Source: Trypanosoma brucei
Taxonomy: Eukaryota
Direction: 5' to 3'
DNA length: 64,000 nt
Assembly (NCBI GenBank): GCA_000002445.1
Contig: CM000208.1
Location: 1,024,001 to 1,088,000, forward strand
Shown: positions 22,532 through 53,237 of the stretch, one piece after another
Layout: each line of letters opens with the position of its first letter
Position numbering within the stretch: the stretch's first letter is position 1
Translations under genes and position numbers: made by a program
The notes under the pieces: generated by a model
Told to the model about the DNA's origin: nothing
Seen by the model: the letters and a program-made list of their open reading frames with translations, nothing else
Databases searched by the model: none

Positions 22532-22544
<13 letters not shown>

Positions 22545-25794: not shown

Positions 25795-25832
25795 TCTCTC
25801 TCTCTCTCTCATACACACACACACACACACAT
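25795..25832. repeat. (TC)n(CA)n compound microsatellite
   Basis: Read directly. It lies about 4 nt 3' of the stop of the 25836-27386 gene. Confidence 0.8.
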
Positions 25833-25835
25833 CTT

Positions 25836-31377: not shown

Positions 31378-32598
31378 TTACGCGGTGTACAGCTCAGGAT
31401 CGACTTCAGCAGGGATCGGTTTGATTTCCGTGTCGAGTTCCTGCTCAATGCGATAGACATTATGGCGGTCTTCATAAGTCACGAAGTTAATGGCGAGTCC
31501 CAAGTGACCGAAACGGCCAGATCGGCCAATGCGGTGAAGGTAAGTCTCCGCGTATTTGGGGAAGTCGAAGTTGATCACCACATTCACAGCCTGAATGTCG
31601 ATACCGCGAGTAATCAAATCAGAGCAAACCAGGTTACGGCAGTGGCCCTCACGAAAGTCGTGAAAGACACGGTTTCGATGTTGCTGCTGCATGCGCGCAT
31701 GAATGTAGTAGCAGCTATACCCAAGCTGAGTGATTTTCTTTGCCAGTAATTCCACACGGTTGACGCTATTGCAGAAAATAATAGATTGATTGATCTGCAG
31801 ACGGTTGAAAAGTGTGTTAAGGCAGTGAATTTTTTGTCGCTCTTCGACGAATGCGTAGTACTGTGTCACACCACGCAGCGTCAGCTCCTCCATGAGATTG
31901 ATTTCGTAAGGGTTGCGCAGATACTTGTCCGCAAAGTCCTTGACTGTGACGGGGAACGTAGCTGAAAAGAGCAACGACTGACGACCTTTGGGTAAGAAAC
32001 CGTAGAGATCCCTCATAAGACTCGTGAACTCCTGCGACAACAGCTTGTCAGCCTCGTCAAGAACAATAATACGGCAGTGATCGAGTTTCGCCGTCCCTTT
32101 ACTAGCGAGATCCACCGCACGCCCAGGTGTGGCCACAAGCACGTGCACCACACTCTGCAGGCGCAAAATATCATCACGGAGTGTTGTTCCACCAGTTGTG
32201 ACCATAACCTCCAACCCGGTGATGTGCTTGCCAAGCTCTTTTGTCACCTGAGCCGTCTGTAGCGCGAGTTCGCGAGTGGGAACCATGAGGAGCGCCTGGA
32301 TATGAGGCAACTGCGTGTCGACCTTCTCCAATACGGGAATGACGAAGGAAGCCGTTTTTCCCGTGCCGTTTTTGGCACGTGCTAGCACATCTTTTCCCTG
32401 CAGGGCCACAGGAATGGCCTCCTCCTGCACCGGACTGGGCCGTTCGAAGCCCTTCTCGAAGATACCCATCTGGAGCTCACGTCGGAGCCCATACTCCTCA
32501 AAGGTAACATTACGCCGAGACTCCACGTCTTCTGTCTTCTTTCGCACATCTTTAGTTGGCGCTTTCAAACCTTCCCTCCAATCATCATCGGTTACCAT
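31378..32598 (-). CDS. DHH1: ATP-dependent DEAD-box RNA helicase DHH1 (DDX6/Me31B/RCK family)
   Basis: Complete helicase motif set: Q-motif region [43 protein letters not shown] as [22 protein letters not shown]. The DDX6-specific C-terminus is present: [54 protein letters not shown]. The ORF-track start at 32808 is GTG. The first ATG is at rc of 32596-32598 ([21 protein letters not shown], cf. the yeast Dhh1 N-terminus). Confidence 0.9.
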
Positions 32599-33207
32599 CG
32601 TATTCGTTGCTGTTGTTAGGTTGGGATGTATTATTCTCTGTGGGGGTGTATACGCGACTGTGGGCGTATGTTGTGTGATATTCTTGTATGGAGACTGCTT
32701 CACTTCCCCACACTTTTCACTTTTTGTTGCCGATTGTTTGTTTCGGTATGCAAATCCTTCTTCGCAGTGTATGCTTTTGCTTCCCTTACTTGTACTCTTC
32801 CCTGTCACTTTCCTGCTTTTACCCCTTTGTATATATCTGCTGTCTACAACTATTTTTCTTCCCTTCTTATAGTAGACCTAGTGATGCACACCATAGGAAG
32901 CAAAAAGGGGGAAGAAAACAACAGTAGGATCATAAATATTGATGCAGTTCATCAGCTACAAGGTGAAACGCGCCGTGTGAGTGAGTGGCACTTTAAAATT
33001 AATAGTTATGTATGTGTGCCCGCACGTACACATGGGGAAAAGCTAAACAAACTGGTCGGAAGACGAGATGACAAAAAAAAATAAGGAACTTCGCTCCATA
33101 GTAAATGAATAGGTTAGAAAACATACGAACACAAATAGCATTACAGGTAACATAAAATACCCTAAAAAAACGCCGGTAGCGCACACAATTGCCCTTCCCC
33201 GAGTTCA

Positions 33208-34041
33208 TCATTTACCAACATATCTGGGTGGTCGCTTCTCCGCAAAAGCCTGCAGTCCCTCCATGCGGTCTTGTGTCTCCATCAGCGATTGGCTTAATCT
33301 CAACTCACCGTCCAATGCCTCGTCACGTGGCCGCCCAAACCCACCGCGCACCGCCGCCTTTGCAGCTGCTACGGCAACCGGGCCGTTGCGTGCTATTCGG
33401 CCAGCTACCGCCAGTGCAGCTTCCGAGGCACCACCAGCAGGCACTAATTCAGTAACGAGACCAAGGCGCTGCGCCCGCTCCGCAGGTACGACATCAGCTG
33501 TTAAAATCAACTGCAAGGCATTACTAAGCCCCATCACAAGTGGTGCCCGGTACGTTCCACCAGCTCCAGGAATAATGGCGAGGCCCGTTTCCGGTAACCC
33601 GAAACGTGCACCCGCTCCAGCAATGCGAATGTCTGTACACAATGCCAACTCGCAGCCACCACCCAGAGCCGCTCCTTCAATTGCACTTATTGTTGGCTGA
33701 GATAGGTCCTCCAGTGCAGTAAGGGTGTCACGCTGCTCCTCCACATACGCACGGGACTCCACTAAAGTCATACCACGTCGCTCCTTAAGATCAGCCCCTG
33801 CGCAGAAAACCCCGTCAACACGGCTCTCCACAATGACACAGCGAATCAGGTTTTCAGGGTTGCGGCAGTAACAAATACACTCCTTTAGCTCACTCAGAAG
33901 CTGTCGACCAATGGCGTTCTTACGAGCGGGTCTGTTGAGTCCAATGAGACCGATATGCTCACCTACACGCGTGAGGGAACACTCACCATCACGAACAACC
34001 TGTGCGACTGCACCCGCAAGCAAAACCGGACAACGGCGCAT
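33208..34041 (-). CDS. Enoyl-CoA hydratase/isomerase (crotonase) family protein, probable mitochondrial
   Basis: GLIGLNRPARKNA, VFCAGADLKER, AIEGAALGGGCELALCTDIRIAGAGARFGLPETGLAIIPGAGGT carry the oxyanion-hole and catalytic Glu motifs of ECH. ATG at rc of 34039-34041. The N-terminus MRRCPVLLAG is presequence-like. Confidence 0.8.
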   Translation of the reverse strand: MRRCPVLLAGAVAQVVRDGECSLTRVGEHIGLIGLNRPARKNAIGRQLLSELKECICYCRNPENLIRCVIVESRVDGVFCAGADLKERRGMTLVESRAYVEEQRDTLTALEDLSQPTISAIEGAALGGGCELALCTDIRIAGAGARFGLPETGLAIIPGAGGTYRAPLVMGLSNALQLILTADVVPAERAQRLGLVTELVPAGGASEAALAVAGRIARNGPVAVAAAKAAVRGGFGRPRDEALDGELRLSQSLMETQDRMEGLQAFAEKRPPRYVGK

Positions 34042-36913: not shown

Positions 36914-37603
36914 TCACCATAGACGCCACCATATCGGATAATGACTGGATAAGTCGTATGGGAGTCCATGAGACTTCTGTAACTGTTGTGCACGCCTATA
37001 GAAGTGGCGGTGTGCCACATGACTTCGCTCCTCGTAAATGGTGTGACCAACACCCGCCCCAGCGGCACACCGGGCTAAAACAACGATATTTGCCGAGGCC
37101 GGGACCGGTACCTGATAAACGTTCTGAGAACCAAAGACCCGTTGGCACATCTGCACAAAGTCGGGATCGGATTTGGGAAGGTTAAACGCTGCAACGCCGA
37201 TCGAGGAGAGTGCCTCGCGGCACAACTGAAGAAAAATAAGGGACGACATGAAGGCGGGTGGATCGCTCCCGACAAAAAGATCCACAAAAAGCACGTCGTA
37301 ACACGTCGCCGGTTGTACTTGGTATCGGGACAGCGGCTTATGCTGGTTTCCGTTAGTGGGATAATCACCACCTTTGAAACTCACAGAAGTTCCAGAATGC
37401 GTGCGGCTAGAAACCAATTCATCAAAGGTACTATTACTCTCCCCAGTGCCAGTTGAAGATCCAACAACATCCTGAAGGAAGGCGGCACCGTCCTGAACAT
37501 GACAGGTGACACTCCCGCCTTGCATTTTCCTTCCCCATCCCATGTCTTCAACTGCAGCCCGAAAGCACTGTTGCTCAGCATCAACTAAGTCGCATAATGT
37601 CAT
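36914..37603 (-). CDS. C-terminal half of the same SAM-MTase/PABS-like protein (separate ORF in the -1 frame, ATGA overlap)
   Basis: Begins MTLCDLVDAEQQCFRAAVEDMGW. The acidic LVDAE sits ~20 aa after the upstream GxGxG, where the motif-II acidic residue of Rossmann MTases/spermidine synthases is expected. Later, YDVLFVDLF resembles the post-II strand. This frame is open for 33 codons upstream of its ATG. Confidence 0.45.
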   Translation of the reverse strand: MTLCDLVDAEQQCFRAAVEDMGWGRKMQGGSVTCHVQDGAAFLQDVVGSSTGTGESNSTFDELVSSRTHSGTSVSFKGGDYPTNGNQHKPLSRYQVQPATCYDVLFVDLFVGSDPPAFMSSLIFLQLCREALSSIGVAAFNLPKSDPDFVQMCQRVFGSQNVYQVPVPASANIVVLARCAAGAGVGHTIYEERSHVAHRHFYRRAQQLQKSHGLPYDLSSHYPIWWRLW

Positions 37604-38463
37604 GTGAGAAATGCTGCTGCGATGAAAGAAGGAGAGAACCCTCCACCAACACCGAGGACAGCGACCCGCAGCCGAGGTAGCGGAGAGGGAAGTAGCAGCA
37701 GAGCACTAAGCATGATGCGCAGATATGGCGCACCTAAATAACTGGCGTCAGCGAGGCAGTTCATTGAGGCCGGTGCCAAGGGGTCGCAGCGAACAAGCGA
37801 TTGTTGCGTGACTCGGTTGCTCCAGCGTCGCAACAAAGCGTCACTGTCATTTCGTACCTCATTATGTGACGTCTCAATAGTCATGGAGGTATATTTAACT
37901 GTACCCGGGGGCCAAGAGGAGGAAGCGATGAACATTGAAGAGCCCACACGATTACCGACGGTATCTTCAACAGCGTCATCATCATCACCGTTGAAGCCCT
38001 TGACGCTACGGGTGGAGACGTCACCGCGAGGTGCGTGTGCATCACCCACAACTTCCCTCACAAGATACAACTCGTTGACCTCTGATACTGAATCACTGTG
38101 GCCAGCAGTGGTGTATGTTTCATTTGAAAAACATGCAAACAGCTTTTTCATGACCCCTCCTCTATCACTGCGTCCACAATTTCCATTTTCGGCATCACTA
38201 CCGCGTGGCAGCAATGATTGTTCCCCTCGCCCCTTTTCCCGGACATAATGATTTGTTACAACAACATCATAACCCAAGAAGGTTTTGCAGGGGTACCGCG
38301 CATGCTCCTCCGAGTGCACAACATCCGCCTCATTAAAGAGTGGAATTTCTCTCTGCCGCAGCAGCGCAATTTCCCGGAAAATACCGATAGCAAATGTACC
38401 ACCAACGCTCGCTGCAATAAACCCCCATGCACGAGCTCCCAGTGGTTTAAAAAAATAGGGCAT
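37600..38463 (-). CDS. N-terminal half of a SAM-methyltransferase/spermidine-synthase-like (PABS-fold) protein; ends 17 aa after a GxGxG motif
   Basis: ATG at rc of 38461-38463. The C-terminal end ...LRVAVLGVGGGFSPSFIAAAFLT* places a Rossmann motif I (VLGVGGG) just before the stop. Stop TGA at 37602-37600 overlaps the next ORF's ATG. Confidence 0.45.
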   Translation of the reverse strand: MPYFFKPLGARAWGFIAASVGGTFAIGIFREIALLRQREIPLFNEADVVHSEEHARYPCKTFLGYDVVVTNHYVREKGRGEQSLLPRGSDAENGNCGRSDRGGVMKKLFACFSNETYTTAGHSDSVSEVNELYLVREVVGDAHAPRGDVSTRSVKGFNGDDDDAVEDTVGNRVGSSMFIASSSWPPGTVKYTSMTIETSHNEVRNDSDALLRRWSNRVTQQSLVRCDPLAPASMNCLADASYLGAPYLRIMLSALLLLPSPLPRLRVAVLGVGGGFSPSFIAAAFLT

Positions 38464-39942: not shown

Positions 39943-42900
39943 GGCAGCGACTCAAATAGGCGATGATGCTGGAAGTGGGAAGTACTAGGAAAAAAGGAAA
40001 ATAAAATAAAATAAACTTGGAACAGATAATAAATGCAAGCCTCCTAATAACCTAAATGGAATGCGCAATAGTTTCTTCGTTGGGTTTTAACCCGGCTCCT
40101 AATCTATGGGTATACAAAGGAAGCATGGTAGAAGGCAAACGGTGCAGGGCACACTCGACAAGAGAAATATATATATTTCTTTAAAAAAAAGAAAAGAGGA
40201 GGTGCGTACGTCTCTCTGATCAGAAAATAAAGTCAAAGTCGTGAGAAGATGTGAAAGATGAGTGGGTAAACACCTCCATCACATTCGCTTCGATGAGGAA
40301 TAAACAAGGAAGCAGTAAGGGGTGCAAAAGAGGGAGCAAAAACTAAAAGGGAGAAAGTGATGAAAGAAATGATGGAAGTTGTCCAGAAACACTGGCTGAG
40401 CTACAAAACAGTGGTTTCCAGATGATTAAATCCGGCTCGTATTTATTTATTTTTTTTCCTTGGTTCCGTTTCGTTTCGTTTGGTTTTGTTCCCTTTTCTC
40501 TTTTCTTTCTCTTTTCTTTTCTTTTCTTCAATTTCCCTCCTTTACTCTCTCCCCCCCCCATACTCCTTCAACTCAGTTATTTCCTCTCTACCATTCTCTT
40601 CACTTACGTGCTAATGCCGAACTAAATACAGGCATACACTGAGAGAAGAAAAGGAACGGAGTAATGAAGGGGCCGTGAAAGAAAGGAAGAAATAAAAGAA
40701 AAATAAAAGAAAGAAAGAACAAAAACTTTGCCTTCGCTCCGAGTAAAACAAAAACGTAATGGCAAAAGTTATCGAACAAAAAAAAAAACTCCCCTACACT
40801 CCTCTACAGCAGTGGTGAATAAGATACGCACCACACAAACACACAAAAAAAAACCATATATACTCATTTGTGCGAATCGTTACATCATGCAAACACTTCC
40901 TCATTGTATTTTGTACTTGTGCATTTGCTGTTATTGTCTCTTGTTTTTTCCTCTCGTTTTTCTGCTTTTCTTTTTCTTTTCCTTTTGTTTTGTTTTGTTC
41001 CTTTTCTTTTTTTTTTATTTTCTCAACCTGTCACCTTTCTACCAGTCTGCAGTCATCGATGATGTTAACAATTTCTGTCTCCCCATTGCGTTGGTCATCT
41101 CCCACGCACAAGTAACATCACCAACACATTTTTTCAGATGTGTACACCATTGAGTTTCACGACAAATTTGAAAAAAAAAATTGGAAAGAAGTCAAACATA
41201 AATAAGGTCAGAACTTTTTTTAAAAAAAAAAGCTAAAAAGAATAAAAAGAAAAGTATGAAGGAAGCCACAATACATACAACCTCGCACAAAACACGCACG
41301 AAGAAGGGAAAAGAAATAATCAAAAAAAAAAGAAGGGCGCAGGCAAAAACAAACGTTGTCAAACCTCCAGAGGCAGGTAGGAAAATATACGGTGGTAGCC
41401 GAATTAACGAAACCAGTAAAACAATACTGGTCCTCAATTTTAAAAAAAAATTATAATGATAATGATAAAAACAGTAGATATAACATCAAAACCAAGAGAA
41501 AGGAAGAAAAAAAAAAGAAGAATAAACATGTAAAACTCTCATTACACAAAATACGGCGGGTCCCAAGAGTTCCTGCCCTAATAGCCTGCTTAATTGTAAC
41601 ACCACATTCATTCCTCTCATTTGTGTACGTGCATCTGCTTTCACTTAAGTCAGGCAATCGCTTCTCTGCCAGTGTGAAGATGATAATTAATAATAATAAA
41701 TAATAATAACTGGAATCAGTATTAGCACTATTGGTAATAGAATATGCGTGACATCATATTCCTATTTCACGCTAGCGCCCCAATATCTCATACTACTTTA
41801 TATAGTTGCCGCTACTAGTCACTACTAATTATTATCATTATTATTGTAGCACTTCACTCTTATACTGACTCTTTCCTCCTTTTTCCCGCTCTCTTTCTTC
41901 AATACGTCCCTCTAGCTTCTCCTCTTCTTTTTGGGTTTTCATTCATTTTTTTTATTTTTTCGTTTTGATGGGGATGATTTTAAACCTTTAAAACATACAC
42001 ACACACACACCACAAACTACTTGTTCGTCACCAACCATTTATATTTTTTTTTTCCAACCATTGGACAAATCACTATGCGCTGCTGCCATTATGCTAATAA
42101 ATGCTTTACCTTTTACTCATTGCTCAGTTTGTTCGCTTGTTTCTTTGTTTGTACTCATTTTACTTTTGTTGTTGTTATTTTATTTTCATTTTTTTTTTCC
42201 TCCACTCGAGGTCTACCTTCACTTTTCACCCTTTTTGTTAATCCCTAAACACAAATAAAAGGCAAGGAGAGCAGAAATCAACACCAAATATTTTCTTTTC
42301 AAAAAAAAAACAAAAAAGAAAGACCTCCTTTACTCCTACATAATATTTTCTCTTCACATTCATTTGGATCTCCTTTCATTTTCTCTTCTGTCACCGCACT
42401 TCCTTTTTTTCTTTTCCTTCTTCTAACATTGAATTGTTTCGATCCAGTTTTTTTTTTTTAAATATTTTCATGAGATAATACAACACGATATATCTCTTTT
42501 AATATACGAATATGAAATTGCTCACTTTTTGTGCTTTTCCCCATTCTATGCACTTCATTTTTATTACGCATTCATAAATGCACACACAAAAGTGTCGTAT
42601 TCCGCCCTCAGCGACACATGCGGTTACAACAGCGGCGGTCAAAAGGAAGAAAAAGTAAAAGTAAAGTAAAAAAAAAAAACGAAATCACACAAAAACAAAT
42701 GCCAGCATAAACCCCCGCAGATATAAATTTATACAAGTTAAGAAAAAAAAAAGAATGCAGACGACCTGGAAAGTTTAAAAAAAAAACATTCCTTCAGATG
42801 CGGTTCAGAACACGAGAGGAAAAGGAGAAAGGGAGGAATGAGACACACACAAACAGCAACAAAAGAGAAAATAATAGAGTAAAAGAATAAATTGAAAAGT

Positions 42901-44219
42901 CCTACTGCCGTCCACACAAAGTAATGTGGTGAAAGGATCCCTAAAAGCAAACAAGTGTTTTGTAAAGTCACCCATGGAAAAGTGATACAACAACAAGTGA
43001 AGGTAACAAACCTTCACAGCCCCAACACAACATGGAACTCAGGAACAGTAGAGCAAAAAAAAGAAAAAGAAAAAAGAAAAAAGAAAGAAAATGCCTTAAA
43101 GCGTCGGAACAAACAAACTAAAGTGTGGTATCACCTCACCGTTCAAGTTGTTGCTGTGGCCGTACGCTCCCAACATGTCTTTCCTTTCCCCTTCTCTCTA
43201 ATGTGATCCATCTATCCCCATTCTCCGTTCCACACACACACAAGAAAAAAAAGAAAAAAACGCCACCAAAAAAAAGCCTCCCACCCCTTCCCCCCCCCCC
43301 GCCTCCGGGAACTTCATCGCTAAATAATAAAATACCGCTGCGGACTCTACTGACAAAGTGGGGAACCGGCTGCTTAAGAACTGCACCATTTCTTGACCAT
43401 TTTTTTTTTCCTTTGAACTCTGTTGTTTTGTTTCCATCTCCTGGGATTGTCGAAAAAACGGGAGCGAATACATGGCATATGAAATATTGAAGCGAATATA
43501 TTTATATATTTTATATATGGCAAGAGCATTGAGGTAATGTAAGAAGGTGATTAATTAGAAGGAAAAAGAAAACAAAGAAACAAACACACGTGTACGAAGC
43601 ACCACAGTCGCGCCTTCCTATAGCCCCAGATCCCAGTCCCCACCCAATTCACACAGTTCCTTCTTATCGTACTCTACATTAAATGAAATAAATAAACAAA
43701 TAAAACGAACCGCATACATCCCTTTGTCCTTTTTGAGGCCGTTTATTTAAATCCATACCCCCGAGTACCTCCAAAACAGGGTGTCCTCATATCCCCCTCA
43801 CAGCAAGCGAACATATATAAAGATAGATGAAGGTAAATACATTATTGATATAGCGCTTACGTAACTCGGGACGGCACTTTTGTCCAAATGCACCTCCCTC
43901 TCGTATGGTGTCGGAGATGGAAAGTGTTTGAGAAGGAGAGAAGAAAAAAAAAAGAAAAAAAAGATCCCGCATTACATTTAAGGATTTTAATGTGCTACTA
44001 CCACCGCGTTCACCAGGGAGAGGAAGGGAAAACGGTGTAAAATCGTACAACAAGGGGAGGAATACACAAAAACGGTACAAATCAAACAAATGGGAGACGG
44101 AAGGGAGTGGGAAGTCTAAGGGGATAAATTATATATATATATATATACCCTCGCAACCACGCCATAACTAATACGGAAAGAAAAAAGGAGGAAGAGCGCA
44201 ACGCATGCTGCTATTATTA

Positions 44220-45893
44220 TTACTCCTCGCCCTGCGGGGGCACGGTGCTGGGCAAAAACTGTATGTTGGTTTCCTTCTTTATTTGATCCATAACGTCCAA
44301 CGCGAACTGCAAATCAGCGCGGGTGTGAGCAGCAGAAACACAGAAACGAATGCGGCACCCCAGTAGTGGAGTAGCGGGGTATCCAACAATCACAATAGCA
44401 AGACCACGGCGCATGCATTTCCTCCACACGGCAATTGCTCTCCCAAGATGGTAAAGCATTACGGGAACGACGGGGGAGGCGTCATTACCAAGGACAGAGA
44501 AACCACGATCGATCAAGCCCTGGCGGAAAAATCGTGAATTTTCCATCAGTTGCTGTATGTGCTTGGGTCCAATGTCGGTGCCATCATTACCGTTTAGGAC
44601 GTCAAGCACAGAGAGAGCCTGCTGAGCACAGGGAGGAGAAAGCGTATCGCAGTGAAGCGCTAGAGAGCTGTGAGTTCGGATGTGGTCAATTACGCTCTGG
44701 TCCCCAGCAAGATAACCGCCAATAGCCCCGAAGCTCTTGGTGAAAGTCCCCATGAGAATATCCACGTCACGCGGGTCCACACCGAAGTGCTCCGTTACGC
44801 CACGCCCCGTACGACCAGTTGCACCAATAGAGTGAGCCTCATCGACAAAGAGCAGGGCACCGTACTTTTTCTTAAGTTCAACAACACGAGGAAGATTAAC
44901 AAACTCTCCCTCCATACTATAGACACCCTCAACGACGATGACAATGCGGGTCCATGGCACGTATGCGCCCTTTGGATTCTGCCCGAGCACAACCGCCTCA
45001 CGGAGCACCTTCTCCAGGCTGTTCATGTCAGCATTCTTGAATACCTTGGCGCGGGCACCAGATAACCGTATGCCGTTAACGAGCGAAGAGTGGTTCAAGC
45101 TATCGCTGACCACAAGTGTATCCTCACCAAACAATGCAGGAAGACCACGAAAGTTTGTGCCGAAGCCCATCCCACACACAACAGCGTCCTCCTTCTTTAA
45201 AAAGTCTGCTATGGCACGCTCAAGTTTAGAAACTGGACCATGCTGACCAGCGTGTTGGGCGGCGCTGCATGAAGCAAGACCATAGCGATCTAAGCTGTTA
45301 AGCACCTCACGAGTAATATGGGGTATATCATCCGCAAACCCAAGGTAGTTGTATGACGAAAGGTTAACGCATGGTTTGATATTTCCAGTGAAGGAAAAAG
45401 TTCTATTGGAGTCCGTCGAAACCCGCTCCATCACACCAATCACACGAGACGGACGTGAGTCAATCGCATGGTTGAAGCAGTCACGCGCACGGCGGTAGAA
45501 ATGATTCTGCCAGAAATATTCGAGGAAAGTAAGCAGAGATGCATATCCCTCACGCTGCTTCCTTTTTGCGCCAAATAACTTCCGGCGAAGCTCGGCAATG
45601 CATCCAAAAGTGAATAAAAGTAAAAACGTGAAGTATGTCATTACCACAGAAATAAATGGAATGCTTTTGTGCTCCTCCTCCTGGTGCGTCACCCGCTTCG
45701 GCTGAGTATGCGTCCCCACACTTTCCTTTTGACATATCGTGTCCGTTGCACCATTTGCTGCAAAACTCGCCCGAACCGAACCTTGTTTATTGTACGCCTC
45801 GTCACAAGACTCGGCTTCAGTTACTGCCTTGTTCGCAACAACGGCACCCCGAGGTGCGTCTAAGAAATTCTCCGCCTCCACGTAAGTAGGCAT
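44220..45893 (-). CDS. SPT2: Serine palmitoyltransferase subunit 2 (LCB2), class-II alpha-oxoamine synthase aminotransferase
   Basis: The PLP-lysine motif GTFTKSFGAIGGY is diagnostic of LCB2. Also present: DEAHSIGATGRTGRG, a TM segment (FISVVMTYFTFLLLF) upstream of the catalytic domain, and the NYLGF motif. ATG at rc of 45891-45893. Confidence 0.9.
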   Translation of the reverse strand: MPTYVEAENFLDAPRGAVVANKAVTEAESCDEAYNKQGSVRASFAANGATDTICQKESVGTHTQPKRVTHQEEEHKSIPFISVVMTYFTFLLLFTFGCIAELRRKLFGAKRKQREGYASLLTFLEYFWQNHFYRRARDCFNHAIDSRPSRVIGVMERVSTDSNRTFSFTGNIKPCVNLSSYNYLGFADDIPHITREVLNSLDRYGLASCSAAQHAGQHGPVSKLERAIADFLKKEDAVVCGMGFGTNFRGLPALFGEDTLVVSDSLNHSSLVNGIRLSGARAKVFKNADMNSLEKVLREAVVLGQNPKGAYVPWTRIVIVVEGVYSMEGEFVNLPRVVELKKKYGALLFVDEAHSIGATGRTGRGVTEHFGVDPRDVDILMGTFTKSFGAIGGYLAGDQSVIDHIRTHSSLALHCDTLSPPCAQQALSVLDVLNGNDGTDIGPKHIQQLMENSRFFRQGLIDRGFSVLGNDASPVVPVMLYHLGRAIAVWRKCMRRGLAIVIVGYPATPLLGCRIRFCVSAAHTRADLQFALDVMDQIKKETNIQFLPSTVPPQGEE

Positions 45894-48100: not shown

Positions 48101-49093
48101 TTACCCGCCAGCAACCGACGGCATGCGCCTAATTATTTCGTTCTTCAACTCCCCGTACCGTATGTATTCGTAAGAGTGCGCCTGCCGATCATTCCTCGTT
48201 GGTGCAAATCCGTTACGCTGTTCAAAATCGCTCTCAAAACGGTGGAGAATCCGCTTCAAGTACCGCTTTTCAGCGGCGAGCTCCTCATTTGACATCTGTG
48301 ACACGCGGATACCACTGCCGATCGTCGGTTGCGTGGAGCCCGGCCCCTCGTTTGCGGACAGTCCTGACGATGTGGATGACCTGACCACCTGACGCTGCAA
48401 ACCACTGGGCTGAGTTGTAGACCCGACAACTCTACGAGCCGGGTTATCCACCTGACTGCCGGAGGGGGAGGGAGTCCGTACTCTCACTCCTGATGTCACC
48501 GTCCCCGCACTGTTCGCACGTTCACTACTGGATCGTGCACCCTGAGGCTGTTGTGTCTGCGATTGAGAGTTTGTGAGATTGTTATTGTCTTCGCCACCGC
48601 CATTGGTGGGTGACTCCTCTCCCCGTAAGCGGTTCTTTGCCAGTTTATATAGTTCATACACCTGTCGCAGCATGGCCTTATCACGAGTGGTCACTGCAAC
48701 CCCACGCTCTTCACAAAACACCCGCTCCCACTCGTGAATACGCTGTTTCATCTCTTTTTTAAAGGAAAGGCACTGTCCGTGCGTTAGAGATGTTACTACA
48801 CCGGCCGCTGCCGAGGGGGAAGTTCGCCCATCCCTCCCCCGCGAGTGGTCTAGGAATGTTATCTCACCACGGTAACTTGATAGAAGTTGCAGCGCCAGCA
48901 CATCTGCGGAGGGTGATTGGGGTCCATAGGTTTGCTCTATGCGGCTGCGCTGCTCACGCTGCAGCGAACGTACCGACTCAATAGTTGCTCTATTGTGCGC
49001 CCGGAAATCTTCGTCAATCACATGAGTTTGTGTGAAACTGAGTGCGTCGACAGTTTGCGCAGCCGCTTGCATCAACTGATCTCTCACGTCCAT
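48101..49093 (-). CDS. Hypothetical protein with internally duplicated ~45-aa helical motif and Ser/Thr/Gln-rich linker
   Basis: ATG at rc of 49091-49093. Motif copy A is KQRIHEWERVFCEERGVAVTTRDKAMLRQVYELYKLAKNRL. Copy B is KRILHRFESDFEQRNGFAPTRNDRQAHSYEYIRYGELKNEI. Conserved positions are FE..F....G.A.T..D+.....YE.Y..LKN. Confidence 0.5.
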   Translation of the reverse strand: MDVRDQLMQAAAQTVDALSFTQTHVIDEDFRAHNRATIESVRSLQREQRSRIEQTYGPQSPSADVLALQLLSSYRGEITFLDHSRGRDGRTSPSAAAGVVTSLTHGQCLSFKKEMKQRIHEWERVFCEERGVAVTTRDKAMLRQVYELYKLAKNRLRGEESPTNGGGEDNNNLTNSQSQTQQPQGARSSSERANSAGTVTSGVRVRTPSPSGSQVDNPARRVVGSTTQPSGLQRQVVRSSTSSGLSANEGPGSTQPTIGSGIRVSQMSNEELAAEKRYLKRILHRFESDFEQRNGFAPTRNDRQAHSYEYIRYGELKNEIIRRMPSVAGG

Positions 49094-49685: not shown

Positions 49686-52600
49686 TCACATGCGTGCGGA
49701 CTGAATAACCGCCTCTGAGAGGTTGGCGAACGACACTCTAGAATGCGCCATGCACTTAAGTAGTGGCGACGGCTGCAAGTGCGCCCCGTGCCACACCGCC
49801 AACTCTTCCATTTTTTGCAACATCAAACCAGCACCCATGGCGTCAGCCAGTGTTAGCGCTCCGCCAGTGGTTTCACTGAACCCCAATGTCGCTATAGTCA
49901 GCGCGTTTGCATCTGCCGCAGTAAGCAGATGCCCTGACAGCAGTAACTCGCAGCATTCATTCACAACAACAGAGAGCAAACGGTCAGACAGCTCTGTATC
50001 TGTAAGATGACGACGTAAGTATTGCTTTTGAACCACCGTATTTAGTGCAACTGAAGAACCATCCGCTCCATATGTGTAGAAACCACCACGTCTTGTTCGA
50101 ATACCACCGAATCCGTCATTGCTCATACTACGAAGCACCTGGTATCCGATAGAAGGGAGCCAATCGTGTATCAGCGGATTGCGGTGGTCGTTCATGTGAC
50201 TCGTTTCCTCAATCAAACGCGAAACGGTAGAGGTACCCAAATGATCAGCGAGTCGGAATGGTCCACCCAGAAGCCGGAGCACACCTGTAGAGACACGTTC
50301 AACTTTCTCGATGTCGCAATGCATCGCAATCCGACACGCCTCTGTCACGAAAGCCGCGATGAGGCGGCCGCTACAGGAATGCCGGCAAACAACATATGGC
50401 CGATATTCTTGCTGCAAGTAAGCCAGTGCTGCGGAAAGTGTACTTGCCCGCAGGTGTTCAGGGCACCCTTCCCGACCAAAGAGACGAACCTCCTGTAGAT
50501 CTCGAAGGGGAGATACCGCATACGCTGAAACGGGTGATATAGTTGCAACGCAGTTAAATTCAGGTATGAGCGGGCGCGCAACATATTCATCGCCAATTAA
50601 TACCACGTTTGCCTTTGTTAGAACACCGGATTGGTCCTTCACCAAGCTCTTTATCGCTTCAATGTTCGATTTCCCGCAATCAAGCAAGACAGTTACTTGG
50701 TTGCAGCTCTCGGCAGACAACGCCCTTACTTTCCTCGGCCACAGCTCCGCTTCATCGGCCTTAAACCTCAAATACCCTCCATCCGGTGGGGACGAAAGCA
50801 CCCTACGTTGAATCTCACACCCATGCCCATAAATGCGAGCTGCGTTAAGTGCAGAGGGGGAAAAAAGAAATTCACTATAAATACCCTCGCTACGCAGTGT
50901 CCCTGTTTCCACTGCTGCGGACGCGTTCCCACTCTCTCCAACGTTGTGAGTACATCCCCCGCTCGCCATTGCAGCCAGACAATACCGACGCCAAGCCTGT
51001 GTAATGGGATTTGAGTACACCTCGACGCTGCTTCCCCCTGTGGAACGAGTAAGGAAAAATCTGCGTAGAACAAAATCCCGCAGCGCAGGTCGGTTTAAAA
51101 GGGCGAGCAAGGCGTTTTCCAGACGTAACAGCAAAGAGGTAGGTGGTGACGCTTTGCTGTGGTCGACGTAACTGAGGCGAAGGGCCGTGAGCCCCTCACG
51201 AGTATCGCGTGCGTGGCGGGCAACACCAGCATCCAGCAATGTCGCAGCAGTGAATCTGTACTGTTGCTGTGATGCAGCAAGAGTGCGCTGCGCACCGAAG
51301 TAGCGGCACAGCTGCCGCACAGCATGCGAAGTAGGGAAATCACCCAGCATGCACGACGGAAATCCAAAAGTAGTGTGGGTTGCGTCAAGGAACACGCGGT
51401 AATGACAAGCAAGGAACAACTCCGCCGCAAAATCATCAAGAGAACCTCCGTTTACGATCGCCACGAAATTAAGAGGAGGCGTCTTGGCCATGCGCAGAAA
51501 TAGCCGTTCCTTCTCCCGTATTAACTCAATACGCTCGGAGCACGAAAGCTCCAATGGACTATGCTTTGGCTGAAAGAATGCAATACCAGGCAGTGAGGTG
51601 AGCACTACATGGGTGACCGGCCCACTCATCGTAACGGAGTGATTTTCAATGGCCGTTATAGCCTCATTAAGCGCACCTACAGCCGAGATGGTACTTACCA
51701 GTGGCTCCCAAAGGGTGATGGTAACAATATGCTGCGATGACTCATCAAAGGACAACTTCAACAGCGCTGAACCACTTTGTGCAGTAAACGCTCCACAAGT
51801 CCACGGAGCCAACGGAGGGTGCTCAGTGATACAACTCGAGACAGTTGAAGACAAGTTGCTCCTTCCATCCGATTCTTTGGGTTGCTGCTCTTCCATTCCA
51901 TACAGTGAGGTTTCCAAGCTGGCGGCTGTCACAGTGTTGTTGATGCTCAATTCTGATAACTCCTTTTCTCCGACAACGTCATGGGTCACCCCCGTGTGCT
52001 TTTGCATAAATGCCCCTCCACTAAAGTCGTCAGGCACCATATGGTTGTCAATCAATGTCGCCTCCTTTTCGGACAACTCTTTAAGACCGCCTTTATCCGC
52101 AAGTTCCACAATTGGCTCAGATTTTTCGCAGTGTTCAAAGTTTAAACTGAGGCCTTCGATTTCTCGACCCACAATGACCGGAGAACGCACAAGGGGTCTC
52201 GTTGCTCGCGCCCGCTCAATCTCCTCATCCAGAGAGAGGGCAGAACTTTTCGCCCAAACAGTGTCTTGGGGGTCACCACTAGCGGTCGGTGGTGCGATAG
52301 TGGTTCGTGTGCCATTCCGAGAACCACTCACCGGCTTCGATGAAGCTACGAAGTCGCTTGGCATCGAAGGAGCCGCAGGTGGTGCCAACGGTGCTTTTGG
52401 TGGGTCCGGAGCTCTAGGTGCCGCCTTCGGAGCGAAAGGCACCTGCCGTTTCGACGGTGATGGATTATGTGACGCGAAAACTATTTTGATGTCTTGTATA
52501 TCCTCCACAACGTTTGAAAGGGACATGTCCCTATTTCCTTTATATGTATCTCCCCGGCTACGTATTTTTTCTTTCTTCGAGTAACCCACCTCTCTCCTTG

Positions 52601-53237
52601 AATTCCGGCCCTCCTTAGCACCCCCACTTCTCTGCAAACGGCCCCTTTCCTCATCCAACCCAGATGCACGATCATCTCCCGTAAAACGACCACGTGATCT
52701 CCTTGTAGAGGTCATAAAATTCACAGGAGCTGCTTTCTGTAGTTCCGGTGCTGCGGGAGCTGCTTTCTGTAGTTCCGGTGCTGCGGGAGCTGCTTTCTGT
52801 AGTTCCGGTGCTGCGGGAGCTGCTTTCTGTAGTTCCGGTGCTGCGGGAGCTGCTTTCTGTAGTTCCGGTGCTGCGGGAGCTGCTTTCTGTAGTTCCGGTG
52901 CTGCGGGAGCTGCTTTCTGTAGTTCCGGTGCTGCGGGAGCTGCTTTCTGTAGTTCCGGTGCTGCGGGAGCTGCTTTCTGTAGTTCCGGTGCTGCGGGAGC
53001 TGCTTTCTGTAGTTCCGGTGCTGCAGGAGCTGCTTTCTGTAGTTCCGGTGCTGCGGGAGCTGCTTTCTGTAGTTCCGGTGCTGCGGGAGCTGCTTTCTGT
53101 AGTTCCGGTGCTGCAGGAGCTGCTTTCTTGAGTGGTTCAGTTTGGTATCTTCTCACAGCATTCCCTGTTACCGCAAATAGGCAGCCGGTTGGGGGACCGC
53201 TGAGCGCCGAAGCGACTGTAGGTGCAAATCGCCGCAT
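49686..53237 (-). CDS. Repeat-containing trifunctional-enzyme-alpha-like protein: 13 x AAPELQKAAP repeats + Pro/Ala-rich linker + enoyl-CoA hydratase-like + 3-hydroxyacyl-CoA dehydrogenase-like (HADH_N + 2 x HADH_C) domains
   Basis: The ORF-track start at 53285 is TTG. The first ATG is at rc of 53235-53237 (MRRFAPTVASALSG, presequence-like). The ECH-like segment is NFVAIVNGGSLDDFAAELFLACHYRVFLDATHTTFGFPSCMLGDFP; the second catalytic Glu position is not Glu. HADH-like segments are PYVVCRHSCSGRLIAAFVTEACRIAMHCDIEKVERV, GPFRLADHLGTSTV, RRGGFYTYG and ADANALTIATLGFSETTGGALTLADAMGAGLM. The Gly-rich NAD motif is degenerate (VTVLLDCGKSN). Confidence 0.7.
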   Translation of the reverse strand: MRRFAPTVASALSGPPTGCLFAVTGNAVRRYQTEPLKKAAPAAPELQKAAPAAPELQKAAPAAPELQKAAPAAPELQKAAPAAPELQKAAPAAPELQKAAPAAPELQKAAPAAPELQKAAPAAPELQKAAPAAPELQKAAPAAPELQKAAPAAPELQKAAPAAPELQKAAPVNFMTSTRRSRGRFTGDDRASGLDEERGRLQRSGGAKEGRNSRREVGYSKKEKIRSRGDTYKGNRDMSLSNVVEDIQDIKIVFASHNPSPSKRQVPFAPKAAPRAPDPPKAPLAPPAAPSMPSDFVASSKPVSGSRNGTRTTIAPPTASGDPQDTVWAKSSALSLDEEIERARATRPLVRSPVIVGREIEGLSLNFEHCEKSEPIVELADKGGLKELSEKEATLIDNHMVPDDFSGGAFMQKHTGVTHDVVGEKELSELSINNTVTAASLETSLYGMEEQQPKESDGRSNLSSTVSSCITEHPPLAPWTCGAFTAQSGSALLKLSFDESSQHIVTITLWEPLVSTISAVGALNEAITAIENHSVTMSGPVTHVVLTSLPGIAFFQPKHSPLELSCSERIELIREKERLFLRMAKTPPLNFVAIVNGGSLDDFAAELFLACHYRVFLDATHTTFGFPSCMLGDFPTSHAVRQLCRYFGAQRTLAASQQQYRFTAATLLDAGVARHARDTREGLTALRLSYVDHSKASPPTSLLLRLENALLALLNRPALRDFVLRRFFLTRSTGGSSVEVYSNPITQAWRRYCLAAMASGGCTHNVGESGNASAAVETGTLRSEGIYSEFLFSPSALNAARIYGHGCEIQRRVLSSPPDGGYLRFKADEAELWPRKVRALSAESCNQVTVLLDCGKSNIEAIKSLVKDQSGVLTKANVVLIGDEYVARPLIPEFNCVATISPVSAYAVSPLRDLQEVRLFGREGCPEHLRASTLSAALAYLQQEYRPYVVCRHSCSGRLIAAFVTEACRIAMHCDIEKVERVSTGVLRLLGGPFRLADHLGTSTVSRLIEETSHMNDHRNPLIHDWLPSIGYQVLRSMSNDGFGGIRTRRGGFYTYGADGSSVALNTVVQKQYLRRHLTDTELSDRLLSVVVNECCELLLSGHLLTAADANALTIATLGFSETTGGALTLADAMGAGLMLQKMEELAVWHGAHLQPSPLLKCMAHSRVSFANLSEAVIQSARM
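52726..53131 (-). repeat. Tandem array, 30-bp unit x ~13.5, in-frame coding (AAPELQKAAP)n
   Basis: Plus-strand unit gagctgctttctgtagttccggtgctgcgg repeated head-to-tail. Only two units differ (cgggag vs caggag), synonymous in the minus-strand frame. Confidence 0.9.

What the first reader, a model, noticed from the sequence alone, without database searches (positions are those of the whole stretch)
49686..53237. Repeat-bearing, probably catalytically degenerate trifunctional-enzyme-alpha homologue
A 1183-aa protein begins with a presequence-like MRRFAPTVASALS. It then carries 13 identical AAPELQKAAP decapeptides and a Pro/Ala-rich linker. The C-terminal body has the full FadB/TFP-alpha architecture: crotonase fold, HADH N-domain and two HADH C-domains. 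The second crotonase catalytic Glu position is not Glu (FGFPSCMLG). The NAD GxGxxG is degenerate (VLLDCGKSN). This looks like a beta-oxidation enzyme scaffold repurposed as a pseudo-enzyme, possibly structural or antigenic given the repeats. A separate bona fide enoyl-CoA hydratase sits 15 kb away at 33208-34041.
Basis: partly seen in the sequence, partly recalled or inferred. Interest (0 to 1): 0.65.

Follow-up and report, generated by a model that had tools for sequence, protein, structure and literature searches.

The report
Dead trifunctional-enzyme homologue in trypanosome mitochondria
This Trypanosoma brucei gene (Tb927.10.4080) encodes a mitochondrial protein that keeps the shape of a fat-burning enzyme but has lost its catalytic residues and gained a long Pro/Ala-rich repeat; all kinetoplastid parasites have it and its job is unknown.

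Summary
The minus-strand ORF 49686-53237 is T. brucei TREU927 Tb927.10.4080 (XP_822656.1/Q38BJ2, 1183 aa, "hypothetical protein, conserved"). It has an MRR presequence-like start, 13 near-identical 30-bp/10-aa repeats, a basic R/G/S patch, a linker with conserved short motifs, and a about 700-aa body. The body is homologous over its full length to FadB/FadJ/TFP-alpha (Foldseek E 3e-20; profile-profile E 1e-75).

Both active sites are degenerate in all 26 family members examined:
- second hydratase Glu is Ser/Leu/Asn;
- the GGG loop is x-D-F;
- there is no GxGxxG anywhere;
- the His strand is absent;
- Asn is lost;
- the Rossmann domain carries two deletions.

The family spans kinetoplastids (Trypanosoma, Leishmania, Phytomonas, Bodo), usually with Pro/Ala arrays. 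Trypanosoma also has a shorter dead paralogue.

Published proteomics detect the protein in both life stages. It is TbTim17-dependent and is classified as mitochondrial inner membrane.

I found no paper that discusses it. Verdict: an undescribed, conserved pseudoenzyme of moderate interest; its mechanism is inferred only.

The parts
49686..53237 (-). Complete CDS of Tb927.10.4080 (1183 aa plus stop at 49686-49688)
   Evidence: Peptides were detected in published proteomes.
53133..53237 (-). Residues 1-35: presequence-like N-terminus (MRRFAPTVASALS...). Net charge is +3 and the first acidic residue is E34.
   Evidence: Orthologues and the paralogue also start with MRR. Protein level falls 2.4-fold on TbTim17 RNAi. 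Cleavage was not tested.
52725..53132 (-). Residues 36-171: Pro/Ala-rich decapeptide array, a partial unit LKKAAP followed by 13 x AAPELQKAAP
   Evidence: TRF; unit listing. AF2 finds no secondary structure and pLDDT is below 52. Copy number is about 49 in T. b. gambiense, about 40 in T. b. equiperdum and about 43 in T. cruzi.
52518..52721 (-). Residues 173-240: basic R/G/S-rich segment (R 21%, G 15%, S 12%; net +9)
   Evidence: A basic stretch follows the repeats in T. cruzi and Leishmania as well. Function is inferred only.
51798..52517 (-). Residues 241-480: mostly disordered linker carrying conserved short motifs (LSLSxVVEDxxxIK, TIAPP, WxKSxxxSLDEEIExARATRPL, LKxLxxKEAxxIDxHxxPD) and a PPxP-rich patch
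   Evidence: Invariant columns in A2. The motifs recur in Leishmania, Leptomonas and Bodo. AF2 predicts helices only at 333-346 and 390-397.
51138..51797 (-). Residues 481-700: crotonase-fold domain, catalytically degenerate
   Evidence: phmmer/hmmsearch to FadJ, Mtb FadB and TFP-alpha; AF2 pLDDT 65-84; hhalign.
51420..51422 (-). Glu606, equivalent to the first ECH catalytic Glu (FadJ E118); conserved
   Evidence: E in 25 of 26 family members.
51354..51356 (-). Ser628 at the position of the second ECH catalytic Glu (FadJ E140, Mtb E141)
   Evidence: Family counts are S 22, L 3, N 1 and E 0.
50793..51137 (-). Residues 701-815: helical linker region, low model confidence, longer than in FadB-type enzymes
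50388..50792 (-). Residues 816-950: shortened Rossmann-like unit, the remnant of the HAD NAD-binding domain, with two deletions
   Evidence: AF2 beta-alpha-beta elements at 822-950. hhalign shows gaps of about 27 and about 21 columns. No PF02737 hit.
50739..50762 (-). Residues 826-833, KADEAELW: the position equivalent to the GxGxxG NAD loop, with no glycine
   Evidence: hhalign; family columns; no G.G..[GA] motif anywhere in the protein.
50664..50690 (-). It aligns with beta2 (V.L.D, Asp853) and the following loop.
   Evidence: hhalign; AF2 strand 849-853 and helix 856-868.
49689..50387 (-). Residues 951-1183: two HAD C-terminal helical domains. This is the best-conserved and best-modelled part. 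It ends in -QSARM.
   Evidence: PF00725 above its cut-off with 2 stretches; alignment to FadJ 449-699; pLDDT about 85.

Best explanation
Tb927.10.4080 is a nuclear gene for a mitochondrial, non-catalytic descendant of the FadB/FadJ/TFP-alpha multifunctional beta-oxidation enzyme.

Shown:
- The about 700-aa C-terminal body keeps the whole fold order: crotonase, helical linker, Rossmann remnant and two HAD C-domains.
- The hydratase site has lost its second Glu and its GGG oxyanion loop.
- The dehydrogenase site has lost the glycine-rich NAD loop, the His-bearing strand and the Asn, and the Rossmann domain is shortened.
- The same losses occur in orthologues from Trypanosoma, Leishmania, Leptomonas, Strigomonas, Phytomonas and Bodo. 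The family has therefore been kept as a pseudoenzyme since early kinetoplastid evolution.
- The protein is made in both life stages.
- Its level depends on the TbTim17 import translocase.
- It co-fractionates with inner-membrane proteins, not with mitoribosomes or with RNA-editing/kDNA enzymes.
- It has no transmembrane segment.

Inferred:
- The body sits peripherally on the matrix face of the inner membrane, as genuine TFP-alpha does, and serves as a binding platform rather than an enzyme.
- The strictly conserved DFGAE(L/V)FFAC and GFPS motifs in the old hydratase pocket may still bind a ligand or partner.
- The N-terminal Pro/Ala array is a disordered, extended spacer of variable length.
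- The basic R/G/S patch and the conserved linker motifs are docking sites for partners or for acidic lipid or nucleic acid.
For: Identity and expression.

Homology and fold: phmmer to FadJ 3.9e-14; profile to PDB 2.6e-17; Foldseek gives only TFE/MFE1 alpha chains, best E 3.2e-20 over 787 columns; hhalign E 1.1e-75 over 632 columns.

Lost catalytic residues. Family counts for n=26 are. No GxGxxG. No 3HCDH_N hit in seven proteins.

Conservation across kinetoplastids: the exhaustive search shows a tier of relatives at E 0 to 1e-36, separate from genuine enzymes at 3e-27 and weaker. Synteny with T. cruzi is.

Mitochondrial import: presequence-like N-termini. TbTim17 RNAi lowers the protein 2.44-fold, p 0.0014 (PMC5187411 Supplementary Data 1).

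Inner-membrane behaviour: hyperLOPIT TAGM-MAP gives 'mitochondrion - IM' with p=1 in bloodstream forms and 0.999998 in procyclic forms, and MCMC gives 0.9997. Mitoribosome and RNA-editing/TOP2 proteins fall in separate classes (PMC10361982). No transmembrane segment: maximum 19-aa Kyte-Doolittle mean is 1.5.

Disordered repeats.

No canonical partner: T. brucei has only an SCP2-type thiolase according to PMC9512073.
Against: - No experiment on activity or function exists for this protein.
- The first hydratase Glu and the surrounding motif are almost invariant (25/26). This could mean residual or different chemistry rather than mere scaffolding.
- The HAD Glu and Ser positions depend on the alignment (R918, Q915 or E916; S904).
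- The AF2 model is only moderate in the crotonase part (pLDDT 65-84) and poor for residues 715-790. It was built from 12 sequences.
- One single-iteration hyperLOPIT run placed the protein nearest ER (0.984, below threshold).
- The database GO terms include 'kinetoplast'. That may point to a more specific site, or to the tagging artefact that others describe.
- Peripheral membrane binding and the roles of the repeats and the basic patch are inference.
Confidence: 0.7

Rival explanations
1. It is still an enzyme. The crotonase pocket, with its conserved Glu606 and the new DFGAE(L/V)FFAC and GFPS motifs, would catalyse a different single-acid CoA-thioester reaction (for example isomerase-, hydrolase- or decarboxylase-like), or would bind acyl-CoA as a sensor.
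For: Glu1 is E in 25 of 26 members. D at GGG-2 occurs in 22/26, F at GGG-3 in 21/26 and S at Glu2 in 22/26. This conservation is stronger than a mere fold core needs. From my own knowledge, the crotonase superfamily is known for varied chemistry with one acid or none.
Against: The glycine oxyanion loop is replaced by bulky or acidic residues with a one-residue insertion. ECH_1 scores below its cut-off in all orthologues. No activity data exist.
Confidence: 0.12
2. It is a kinetoplast (kDNA)-associated structural tether. The globular body would anchor at the inner membrane. The 40-240 nm Pro/Ala arm and the basic patch would reach or bind the kDNA region, as part of or beside the tripartite attachment complex or nucleoid.
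For: The GO component terms listed for the gene include 'kinetoplast'. Very long extended arrays occur in all major lineages. A basic R/G/S patch lies next to the array.
Against: hyperLOPIT groups the protein with ETC/TIM/MICOS proteins, whereas kDNA TOP2 falls in 'matrix 2'. The gene is absent from the stored supplements of a genome-wide kDNA-maintenance screen. Tagged mitochondrial proteins can show an artificial kinetoplast-proximal enrichment. Repeat charge is not conserved (neutral in T. brucei and T. cruzi, +1 in L. braziliensis, about 0 in L. tarentolae), which argues against DNA binding by the array. The array is N-terminal with nothing distal to it once the presequence is removed.
Confidence: 0.12
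3. It is an accessory factor of the trypanosomal TIM translocase. This would parallel the acyl-CoA dehydrogenase homologue (ACAD) and the inactive rhomboids already found in that complex.
For: In a SILAC-IP of a TIM subunit (PMC5187411 Supplementary Data 2/3) the protein is enriched 4.37-fold, p 0.038. It ranks beside TimRhom I (4.36) and cytochrome c1 (4.39).
Against: That value rests on only 1-2 peptides in 2 of 3 replicates. The protein is not enriched with the stalled presequence intermediate (1.12-fold, 12-16 peptides) or in the MCP12 IP (0.70). The authors do not list it among the ten TIM subunits. An import substrate or an abundant inner-membrane neighbour would behave the same way.
Confidence: 0.06
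4. The repeat array folds into a DotG-like or pentapeptide-type beta-solenoid rather than a disordered spacer.
For: phmmer hits to Legionella IcmE/DotG repeats at E 4e-14. Pfam 'Decapeptide' PF25296 scores 24 bits here and 54 bits (above the cut-off of 45) for the longer T. b. gambiense allele.
Against: There are two prolines per 10 residues here and four or five in T. cruzi and T. congolense-type units. The Leu is not conserved between species. AF2 gives no strands and pLDDT below 52. The hits are between low-complexity A/E/L/K-rich repeats.
Confidence: 0.04
5. The gene model is an artefact: a fusion of a repeat protein with a decayed TFP-alpha pseudogene, or a non-expressed ORF.
For: TREU927 has far fewer repeats than other strains. 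The T. b. gambiense and T. b. equiperdum models carry frameshift-like stretches.
Against: The same architecture and synteny occur in T. cruzi and the same architecture in Leishmania. Peptides cover up to 24.8% of the protein in published mass spectrometry. The body is 43-53% identical across Trypanosoma, with many invariant columns.
Confidence: 0.01

Closest known systems
E. coli anaerobic trifunctional enzyme alpha subunit FadJ (PDB 6YSV, 8BNR) and other bacterial FadB/FadJ enzymes (P. fragi 1WDK, M. tuberculosis 4B3H)
   Same: The domain order and fold match over about 700 residues. These are the best sequence hits (E 3.9e-14; profile 2.6e-17) and the best fold hits (E 3e-20). The first hydratase Glu and the LACHYR motif are shared.
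   Different: Identity is only about 15-16%. The second Glu, the GGG loop, GxGxxG, the His strand and the Asn are lost. The Rossmann domain is shortened. There is a 480-residue N-terminal extension with presequence, repeats and linker. T. brucei has no TFE-beta-type thiolase partner.
Human mitochondrial trifunctional protein alpha subunit HADHA (PDB 6DV2, 5ZQZ)
   Same: It is a homologue (E 2e-9; profile 6e-13; Foldseek 3e-17). It is mitochondrial, presequence-imported and associated with the inner membrane (HADHA membrane association is from my own knowledge; for Tb927.10.4080).
   Different: HADHA is an active hydratase/dehydrogenase in an alpha2beta2 complex. The trypanosome protein lacks the catalytic set and the partner.
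The genuine kinetoplastid trifunctional enzyme (enoyl-CoA hydratase/isomerase/3-hydroxyacyl-CoA dehydrogenase), predicted glycosomal with a PTS2
   Same: Same superfamily, present in the same organisms (PMC9512073).
   Different: The genuine enzyme has measured activities and peroxisomal targeting signals. Tb927.10.4080 is mitochondrial and degenerate. I did not retrieve the T. brucei enzyme sequence, so their exact relationship was not tested.
Repurposed or inactive enzyme homologues in trypanosome inner-membrane machinery (ACAD and the inactive rhomboids TimRhom I/II in the TIM complex)
   Same: These are precedents for beta-oxidation-type or dead enzyme folds serving non-metabolic roles at the T. 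brucei inner membrane (PMC5187411).
   Different: They belong to different protein families. Membership of Tb927.10.4080 in any such complex is not shown.
Ala/Pro-rich flexible linkers (2-oxo-acid dehydrogenase E2 inter-domain linkers) and the Pro/Ala/Lys-rich extension of T. brucei Pol beta-PAK (own knowledge)
   Same: The composition is similar (A 39%, P 20%, with K/E/Q), and an extended, flexible character is expected.
   Different: Here the region is a perfect tandem decapeptide array of 13 to about 50 copies at the mature N-terminus, not a short inter-domain linker. No experimental data exist.

Membership tests
FadB/FadJ/TFP-alpha/MFE1 multifunctional enzyme family (as homologue) | N-terminal crotonase-fold domain | tested here: met
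   Domain alignments to FadJ 81-190 and Mtb FadB 22-207; hhalign; AF2 and Foldseek. Pfam ECH_1 reaches only E 0.033, below its cut-off.
FadB/FadJ/TFP-alpha/MFE1 multifunctional enzyme family (as homologue) | Two tandem 3-hydroxyacyl-CoA dehydrogenase C-terminal domains | tested here: met
   PF00725 at 25.1 bits against a cut-off of 22.1, with 2 stretches. Alignment of residues 909-1164 to FadJ 449-699. pLDDT about 85.
FadB/FadJ/TFP-alpha/MFE1 multifunctional enzyme family (as homologue) | Collinear full-length domain order: crotonase, linker, NAD domain, then the two C-terminal domains | tested here: met
   Foldseek aligns 787-825 columns to about 700-residue TFE/MFE1 alpha chains. Global hhalign aligns 632 columns at E 1.1e-75.
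FadB/TFP-alpha as an active enoyl-CoA hydratase | Pair of catalytic glutamates (FadJ E118/E140; Mtb E119/E141) | tested here: not met
   E606 is kept. The second position is Ser628, and it is never Glu in 26 family members.
FadB/TFP-alpha as an active enoyl-CoA hydratase | Glycine-rich oxyanion-hole loop (GGG before the first Glu) | tested here: not met
   The loop is replaced by D601-F602-A603 with a one-residue insertion. D occurs in 22/26 and F in 21/26 members.
FadB/TFP-alpha as an active 3-hydroxyacyl-CoA dehydrogenase | Rossmann NAD-binding domain with a GxGxxG loop | tested here: not met
   No G.G..[GA] motif in the protein. The equivalent loop is KADEAELW. No PF02737 hit. Two deletions in the domain.
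FadB/TFP-alpha as an active 3-hydroxyacyl-CoA dehydrogenase | Catalytic His (E. coli FadB H450, Mtb H462) | tested here: not met
   The position is Tyr906 by HMMER and MAFFT, and the strand is deleted by hhalign. His occurs in 1 of 26 members.
FadB/TFP-alpha as an active 3-hydroxyacyl-CoA dehydrogenase | Catalytic Glu partner of the His, and the substrate-binding Ser | tested here: inconclusive
   The Glu position maps to R918 (HMMER, MAFFT) or Q915 (hhalign). The neighbouring E916 is Glu in 18 of 26 members. Ser904 may align with the NTS Ser.
FadB/TFP-alpha as an active 3-hydroxyacyl-CoA dehydrogenase | Substrate-binding Asn (GFxxNR motif) | tested here: not met
   The position is Gly957. Asn occurs in 2 of 26 members.
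Trifunctional protein complex | Association with a thiolase beta subunit | not testable with these tools
   The literature states that an SCP2-type thiolase is the only thiolase isoform detected in T. brucei (PMC9512073). No interaction data are available.
DotG-type 'Decapeptide' repeat (Pfam PF25296) | Score above the Pfam gathering threshold | tested here: not met
   24.3 bits against a cut-off of 45 for this protein. The longer T. b. gambiense allele reaches 54 bits. I judge the match to be compositional.
DotG-type 'Decapeptide' repeat (Pfam PF25296) | Ordered repeat fold | tested here: not met
   The AF2 single-sequence model has no secondary structure over residues 36-172 and pLDDT below 52. 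This is weak evidence, because only a single sequence was used.
Presequence-imported mitochondrial proteins | Basic N-terminus free of acidic residues, and dependence on the inner-membrane translocase | tested here: met
   N-terminal composition. Published TbTim17 RNAi SILAC shows a 2.44-fold decrease, p 0.0014. Spatial proteomics is mitochondrial. The cleavage site was not tested.

The most novel reading that the evidence does not exclude
The family is a kinetoplastid-specific architectural element of the inner membrane. A dead TFP-alpha body would dock on the membrane, perhaps still reading acyl-CoA or cardiolipin through the conserved former hydratase pocket. From it a Pro/Ala 'ruler' tens to hundreds of nanometres long would project, setting spacing or organisation between the inner membrane and the kinetoplast/nucleoid region. 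It might act together with the shorter Trypanosoma paralogue.
Probability: 0.1. Interest if true: 0.7.

Novelty: new variant of a known kind. Interest (0 to 1): 0.42.

Why it matters
Databases carry this gene as 'hypothetical protein' with transferred GO terms for fatty-acid beta-oxidation and the mitochondrial beta-oxidation multienzyme complex. The residue mapping shows those terms are almost certainly wrong. That matters for metabolic reconstructions of trypanosomatids, where the existence of mitochondrial beta-oxidation is debated.

The work also defines a family that has not been described in the literature I could search. It is a pseudoenzyme conserved across kinetoplastids, expressed in both life stages, and associated with the mitochondrial inner membrane. 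Other dead or borrowed enzymes are already known to have been recruited into machinery at this membrane, such as ACAD and the inactive rhomboids in TIM. The family has no close counterpart in the host, so if it proves essential it would be parasite-specific.

The strongly conserved replacement motifs in the former hydratase pocket, and the highly variable Pro/Ala array, give clear handles for experiments.

Tried and rejected
- Mitoribosome or assembly-factor hypothesis. This came from my memory of crotonase-like mitoribosomal proteins in trypanosomes. No solved T. brucei chain matches this protein or its paralogue beyond FadJ-type enzymes. hyperLOPIT separates the protein from the mitoribosome class. 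Rejected.
- Gene-ID and accession literature searches. The ID was first guessed by counting from DHH1 (Tb927.10.3990) and SPT2 (Tb927.10.4050). Neither the ID nor the accessions gave a full-text hit. The ID was then confirmed through supplement tables.
- TrypTag supplement. The stored text is cut and lacks this gene, so the 'kinetoplast' term could only be read second-hand.
- kDNA-related sources. Nothing was found in the stored supplements of the genetic screen. The KAP preprint has no stored supplements and no relevant mention in its main text; the nabelschnur preprint has none either.
- kDNA-loss proteomics. Only the kDNA-positive comparison sheet is stored, so it shows detection only.
- Complex I, trifunctional-enzyme and pseudoenzyme topic searches gave nothing specific.
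- Repeat peptides as published antigens: no hits.
- Paralogue gene ID by molecular weight in the hyperLOPIT tables: not found.
- PTS1 idea for the invariant -QSARM tail. It is not family-wide, since Leishmania ends in -SGLL and T. vivax in -SART. The protein is experimentally mitochondrial. Kept only as a side note.
Both were superseded by the profile-profile alignment, which fits the AF2 secondary structure and the canonical spacing.
- dN/dS was not attempted. T. b. brucei versus T. b. gambiense is too close, and T. cruzi is saturated.

Full report
**What is there**

The window is Trypanosoma brucei brucei TREU927 chromosomal DNA. Long ORFs all lie on the minus strand, as in a polycistronic unit. 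The flagged ORF (49686-53237, minus strand) encodes 1183 aa. It is 100% identical to XP_822656.1 / EAN77828.1 / UniProt Q38BJ2, annotated 'hypothetical protein, conserved'.

I first guessed the gene ID by counting genes from two remembered anchors: DHH1 = Tb927.10.3990 at 31378-32808 and SPT2 = Tb927.10.4050 at 44220-45893. Both IDs occur in papers. I then confirmed the ID. The hyperLOPIT annotation table lists Tb927.10.4080 at 127,097 Da and pI 8.113, and I calculate 127,095 Da and pI 8.10. Neighbours are functionally unrelated: a DEAD-box helicase, a genuine enoyl-CoA hydratase, an SDR, an aminotransferase and an ankyrin protein. The same gene order flanks the T. cruzi orthologue, which confirms orthology.

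**Checking the observation**

Tandem Repeats Finder reports one array at 52726-53128: period 30 bp, 13.4 copies, 99% matches, score 792. Translation gives 13 AAPELQKAAP units (residues 42-171) with only two synonymous differences at the DNA level.

The protein is laid out as follows:
- Residues 1-35: a presequence-like N-terminus, net +3, with no acidic residue before E34.
- Residues 36-171: the repeat array.
- Residues 173-240: a basic R/G/S-rich stretch, net +9.
- Residues 241-480: a linker with a PPxP patch and short motifs that are invariant across Trypanosoma.
- Residues 481-1183: the body.

Two plus-strand ORFs inside the gene (51649-52584 and 52748-53131) are antisense by-products. The second is simply the mirror image of the repeat.

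**Is the body a TFP-alpha homologue?**

Yes. The evidence is:
- Pfam passes only the 3HCDH C-terminal domain (25.1 bits against a cut-off of 22.1). ECH_1 is sub-threshold and 3HCDH_N is absent. The same is true for six orthologues.
- phmmer against PDB sequences gives E. coli FadJ at 3.9e-14, M. tuberculosis FadB at 1e-11 and human TFP-alpha at 2e-9.
- A Trypanosoma profile improves the FadJ score to 2.6e-17.
- An AlphaFold2 model of residues 236-1183 has mean pLDDT 61.6. It is about 85 for residues 805-1183 and 65-84 for the crotonase core, and the linker is disordered.
- Foldseek on that model finds only TFE/MFE1 alpha chains, with best E 3.2e-20 and 787-825 aligned columns at about 15% identity.
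- A global profile-profile alignment of 26 family members against 87 genuine FadB-type proteins gives probability 100%, E 1.1e-75 and 632 aligned columns.

**Active-site mapping**

*Hydratase site*
- FadJ E118 aligns with Glu606, which is conserved (E in 25/26 members).
- FadJ E140 aligns with Ser628. This position equals Mtb E141, the residue mutated in PDB 7O1K. Across the family it is S 22, L 3, N 1 and never Glu.
- The GGG oxyanion loop is D601-F602-A603, with a one-residue insertion. D occurs in 22/26 and F in 21/26 members.

*Dehydrogenase site*
- No G.G..[GA] motif exists anywhere in the protein.
- The profile-profile alignment and the AF2 secondary structure agree on the following assignments:
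  - beta1 is YLRF (822-825).
  - The glycine-loop equivalent is KADEAELW (826-833).
- Two deletions of about 27 and about 21 columns shorten the Rossmann domain. The second removes the HFFxP strand that carries the catalytic His.
- HMMER and MAFFT instead put Tyr906 at the His position. Either way His is absent (1/26).
- The Asn of the GFxxNR motif is Gly957 (Asn in 2/26).
- The catalytic Glu is alignment-dependent: R918, Q915 or the neighbouring E916, which is Glu in 18/26 members. Ser904 may match the NTS serine. I therefore call those two positions inconclusive.

Without NAD-loop glycines and without the His, dehydrogenase activity is very unlikely. Hydratase activity of the canonical kind is also very unlikely.

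**Spread of the family**

The word-indexed search found only Trypanosoma orthologues: brucei subspecies, a T. congolense-like entry, cruzi, conorhini, grayi, theileri and vivax.

The exhaustive HMM search showed a separate tier of relatives at E 0 to 1e-36, ahead of genuine about 700-aa FadB-type enzymes at 3e-27 and weaker. The named members of that tier are Leishmania braziliensis, L. panamensis and L. tarentolae, Leptomonas, Strigomonas, Phytomonas, Bodo saltans and T. rangeli.

Leishmania orthologues keep the same plan: an MRR start, a huge Pro/Ala array, the linker motifs and a dead body. The array is KAAPAAPVAP in L. braziliensis and about 780 residues of PQAAPAA-type units in L. tarentolae.

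Repeat number varies widely: 13 in TREU927, about 49 in T. b. gambiense, about 40 in T. b. equiperdum and about 43 in T. cruzi. The reference array may therefore be collapsed.

A shorter, repeat-less and equally degenerate paralogue exists in Trypanosoma. In T. brucei it is XP_823087.1/Q38AB1, 885 aa, on the same chromosome. A rough neighbour-joining tree places all of these in one clade apart from the active enzymes.

**What published data say about the protein**

No searchable paper names the gene, its accessions or its repeat. Supplementary tables do contain it.

*hyperLOPIT (PMC10361982)*
- It classifies the protein as 'mitochondrion - IM' with p=1 in bloodstream forms and 0.999998 in procyclic forms. 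TAGM-MCMC gives 0.9997.
- This map puts mitoribosomes in 'matrix 1' and RNA editing, Fe-S assembly and TOP2 in 'matrix 2'.
- One single-iteration run placed it nearest ER, below threshold.
- The listed GO components are kinetoplast, mitochondrion and the domain-transferred beta-oxidation complex.

*Harsman et al. 2016 (PMC5187411)*
- TbTim17 RNAi lowers the protein 2.44-fold (p 0.0014).
- A TIM-subunit SILAC-IP enriches it 4.37-fold (p 0.038, few peptides), beside TimRhom I and cytochrome c1.
- It is not enriched with the stalled presequence intermediate (1.12-fold, 12-16 peptides).

*Other sources*
- It is detected at low abundance in a bloodstream-form proteome.
- It is absent from the stored supplements of a kDNA-maintenance screen.
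- A preprint warns that tagged mitochondrial proteins can show an artificial kinetoplast-proximal enrichment.

The protein has no hydrophobic segment of transmembrane strength.

**Interpretation**

*Shown*
- The protein is a mitochondrial, TbTim17-dependent member of the FadB/TFP-alpha lineage.
- It co-fractionates with the inner membrane.
- It is catalytically degenerate and conserved across kinetoplastids.

*Inferred*
- It acts as a peripheral inner-membrane scaffold or adaptor.
- The Pro/Ala array is an extended, disordered spacer. AF2 gives no structure for it. Two to five prolines per unit, and the non-conservation of both the Leu and the charge, argue against a DotG-like solenoid and against DNA binding by the array itself.
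- The basic patch and the linker motifs are docking sites.
- T. brucei has only an SCP2-type thiolase (PMC9512073), so a canonical alpha2beta2 trifunctional complex is not expected.

*Unexplained*

The near-invariance of Glu606 and of the replacement motifs DFGAE(L/V)FFAC and GFPS in the former hydratase pocket. This keeps open a ligand-binding role or a non-canonical catalytic role.

**Comparison and novelty**

By descent the protein belongs to the FadB/FadJ/TFP-alpha/MFE1 family. It fails the defining features of both enzyme activities, so it should not be filed as a trifunctional enzyme. The database GO terms for beta-oxidation are likely over-annotation.

The nearest functional precedents are other borrowed or dead enzyme folds in trypanosome inner-membrane machinery (ACAD and the inactive rhomboids in TIM).

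I rate it a new variant of a known kind: a pseudoenzyme derived from a well-known enzyme, with a distinctive N-terminal extension. It is of moderate interest. It is real, conserved and undescribed in the literature I could search, but it has no demonstrated function so far.

Noticed in passing
not in window; T. brucei XP_823087.1/Q38AB1 (P0171), same chromosome: A second, shorter (885 aa) TFP-alpha-like protein without repeats. It has an MRR start and the same degenerate motifs (ALDFGAELLFTC, VGFPSLQF, no His). Orthologues exist in T. congolense, T. vivax, T. grayi and T. rangeli. It is a possible partner of Tb927.10.4080.
   Followed up: partly
window 49689-49703 (C-terminal residues QSARM): The last five residues, -QSARM, are invariant in most Trypanosoma orthologues and fit a PTS1-like tripeptide pattern (A-R-M). 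T. vivax ends in -SART and Leishmania in -SGLL, and the protein is experimentally mitochondrial. The tail is probably a relic or has another role.
   Followed up: partly
window 51402-51431 and 51342-51368: The former hydratase pocket carries new motifs that are strongly conserved across kinetoplastids: DFGAE(L/V)FFAC and GFPSxxxGxFPS. This is more conserved than expected for a dead site.
   Followed up: partly
window 52726-53128 versus P0001, P0010, P0004: Repeat copy number differs 3- to 4-fold between the TREU927 reference (13) and T. b. gambiense (about 49), T. b. equiperdum (about 40) and T. cruzi (about 43). The gambiense and equiperdum models contain frameshift-like stretches. The reference array may be collapsed.
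   Followed up: no
window 51649-52584 (+) and 52748-53131 (+): Two long antisense ORFs lie inside the gene. The second is a perfect LRELLSVVPV repeat that mirrors the sense-strand array. Both are mechanical by-products, not genes.
   Followed up: yes
window 33208-34041 (-): The neighbouring 277-aa enoyl-CoA hydratase has an MRR start and intact GGGCE and LPE catalytic motifs. By gene count it is probably Tb927.10.4000. It is unrelated to the target except by superfamily.
   Followed up: yes
window 48101-49093 (-): The downstream neighbour Tb927.10.4070 (330 aa) has only a weak sub-threshold Drc1-Sld2 match. Its T. cruzi counterpart is flagged FAM13A-like. Its listed localisations are basal body, pro-basal body, bilobe structure, cell tip, cytoplasm and nucleus.
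   Followed up: no
window 18187-19062 (-) and 19268-20122 (-): Tandem duplicate ribosomal protein S3a genes. The adjacent 574-aa SHIPPO-repeat ORF (16463-18187) abuts the first copy by one base in the mechanical ORF list, so its true start is probably further downstream.
   Followed up: no
window 36914-37603 (-) and 37600-38463 (-): Two ORFs without Pfam hits overlap by 4 bases (ATGA). By gene count they are Tb927.10.4020 and Tb927.10.4030. This is unusual spacing for trypanosome genes, or a start-codon artefact of the ORF caller.
   Followed up: no
P0023 (EukProt 'Colponema vietnamica' transcriptome): A family member at E 3e-86 is attributed to a non-kinetoplastid predator. Contamination from kinetoplastid prey is the likely cause (inference).
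   Followed up: no
window 22000-31000 and 40000-44000: Long stretches of low GC (0.31-0.41) lie between coding regions of about 0.50 GC. This is typical of long trypanosome intergenic and UTR regions.
   Followed up: no
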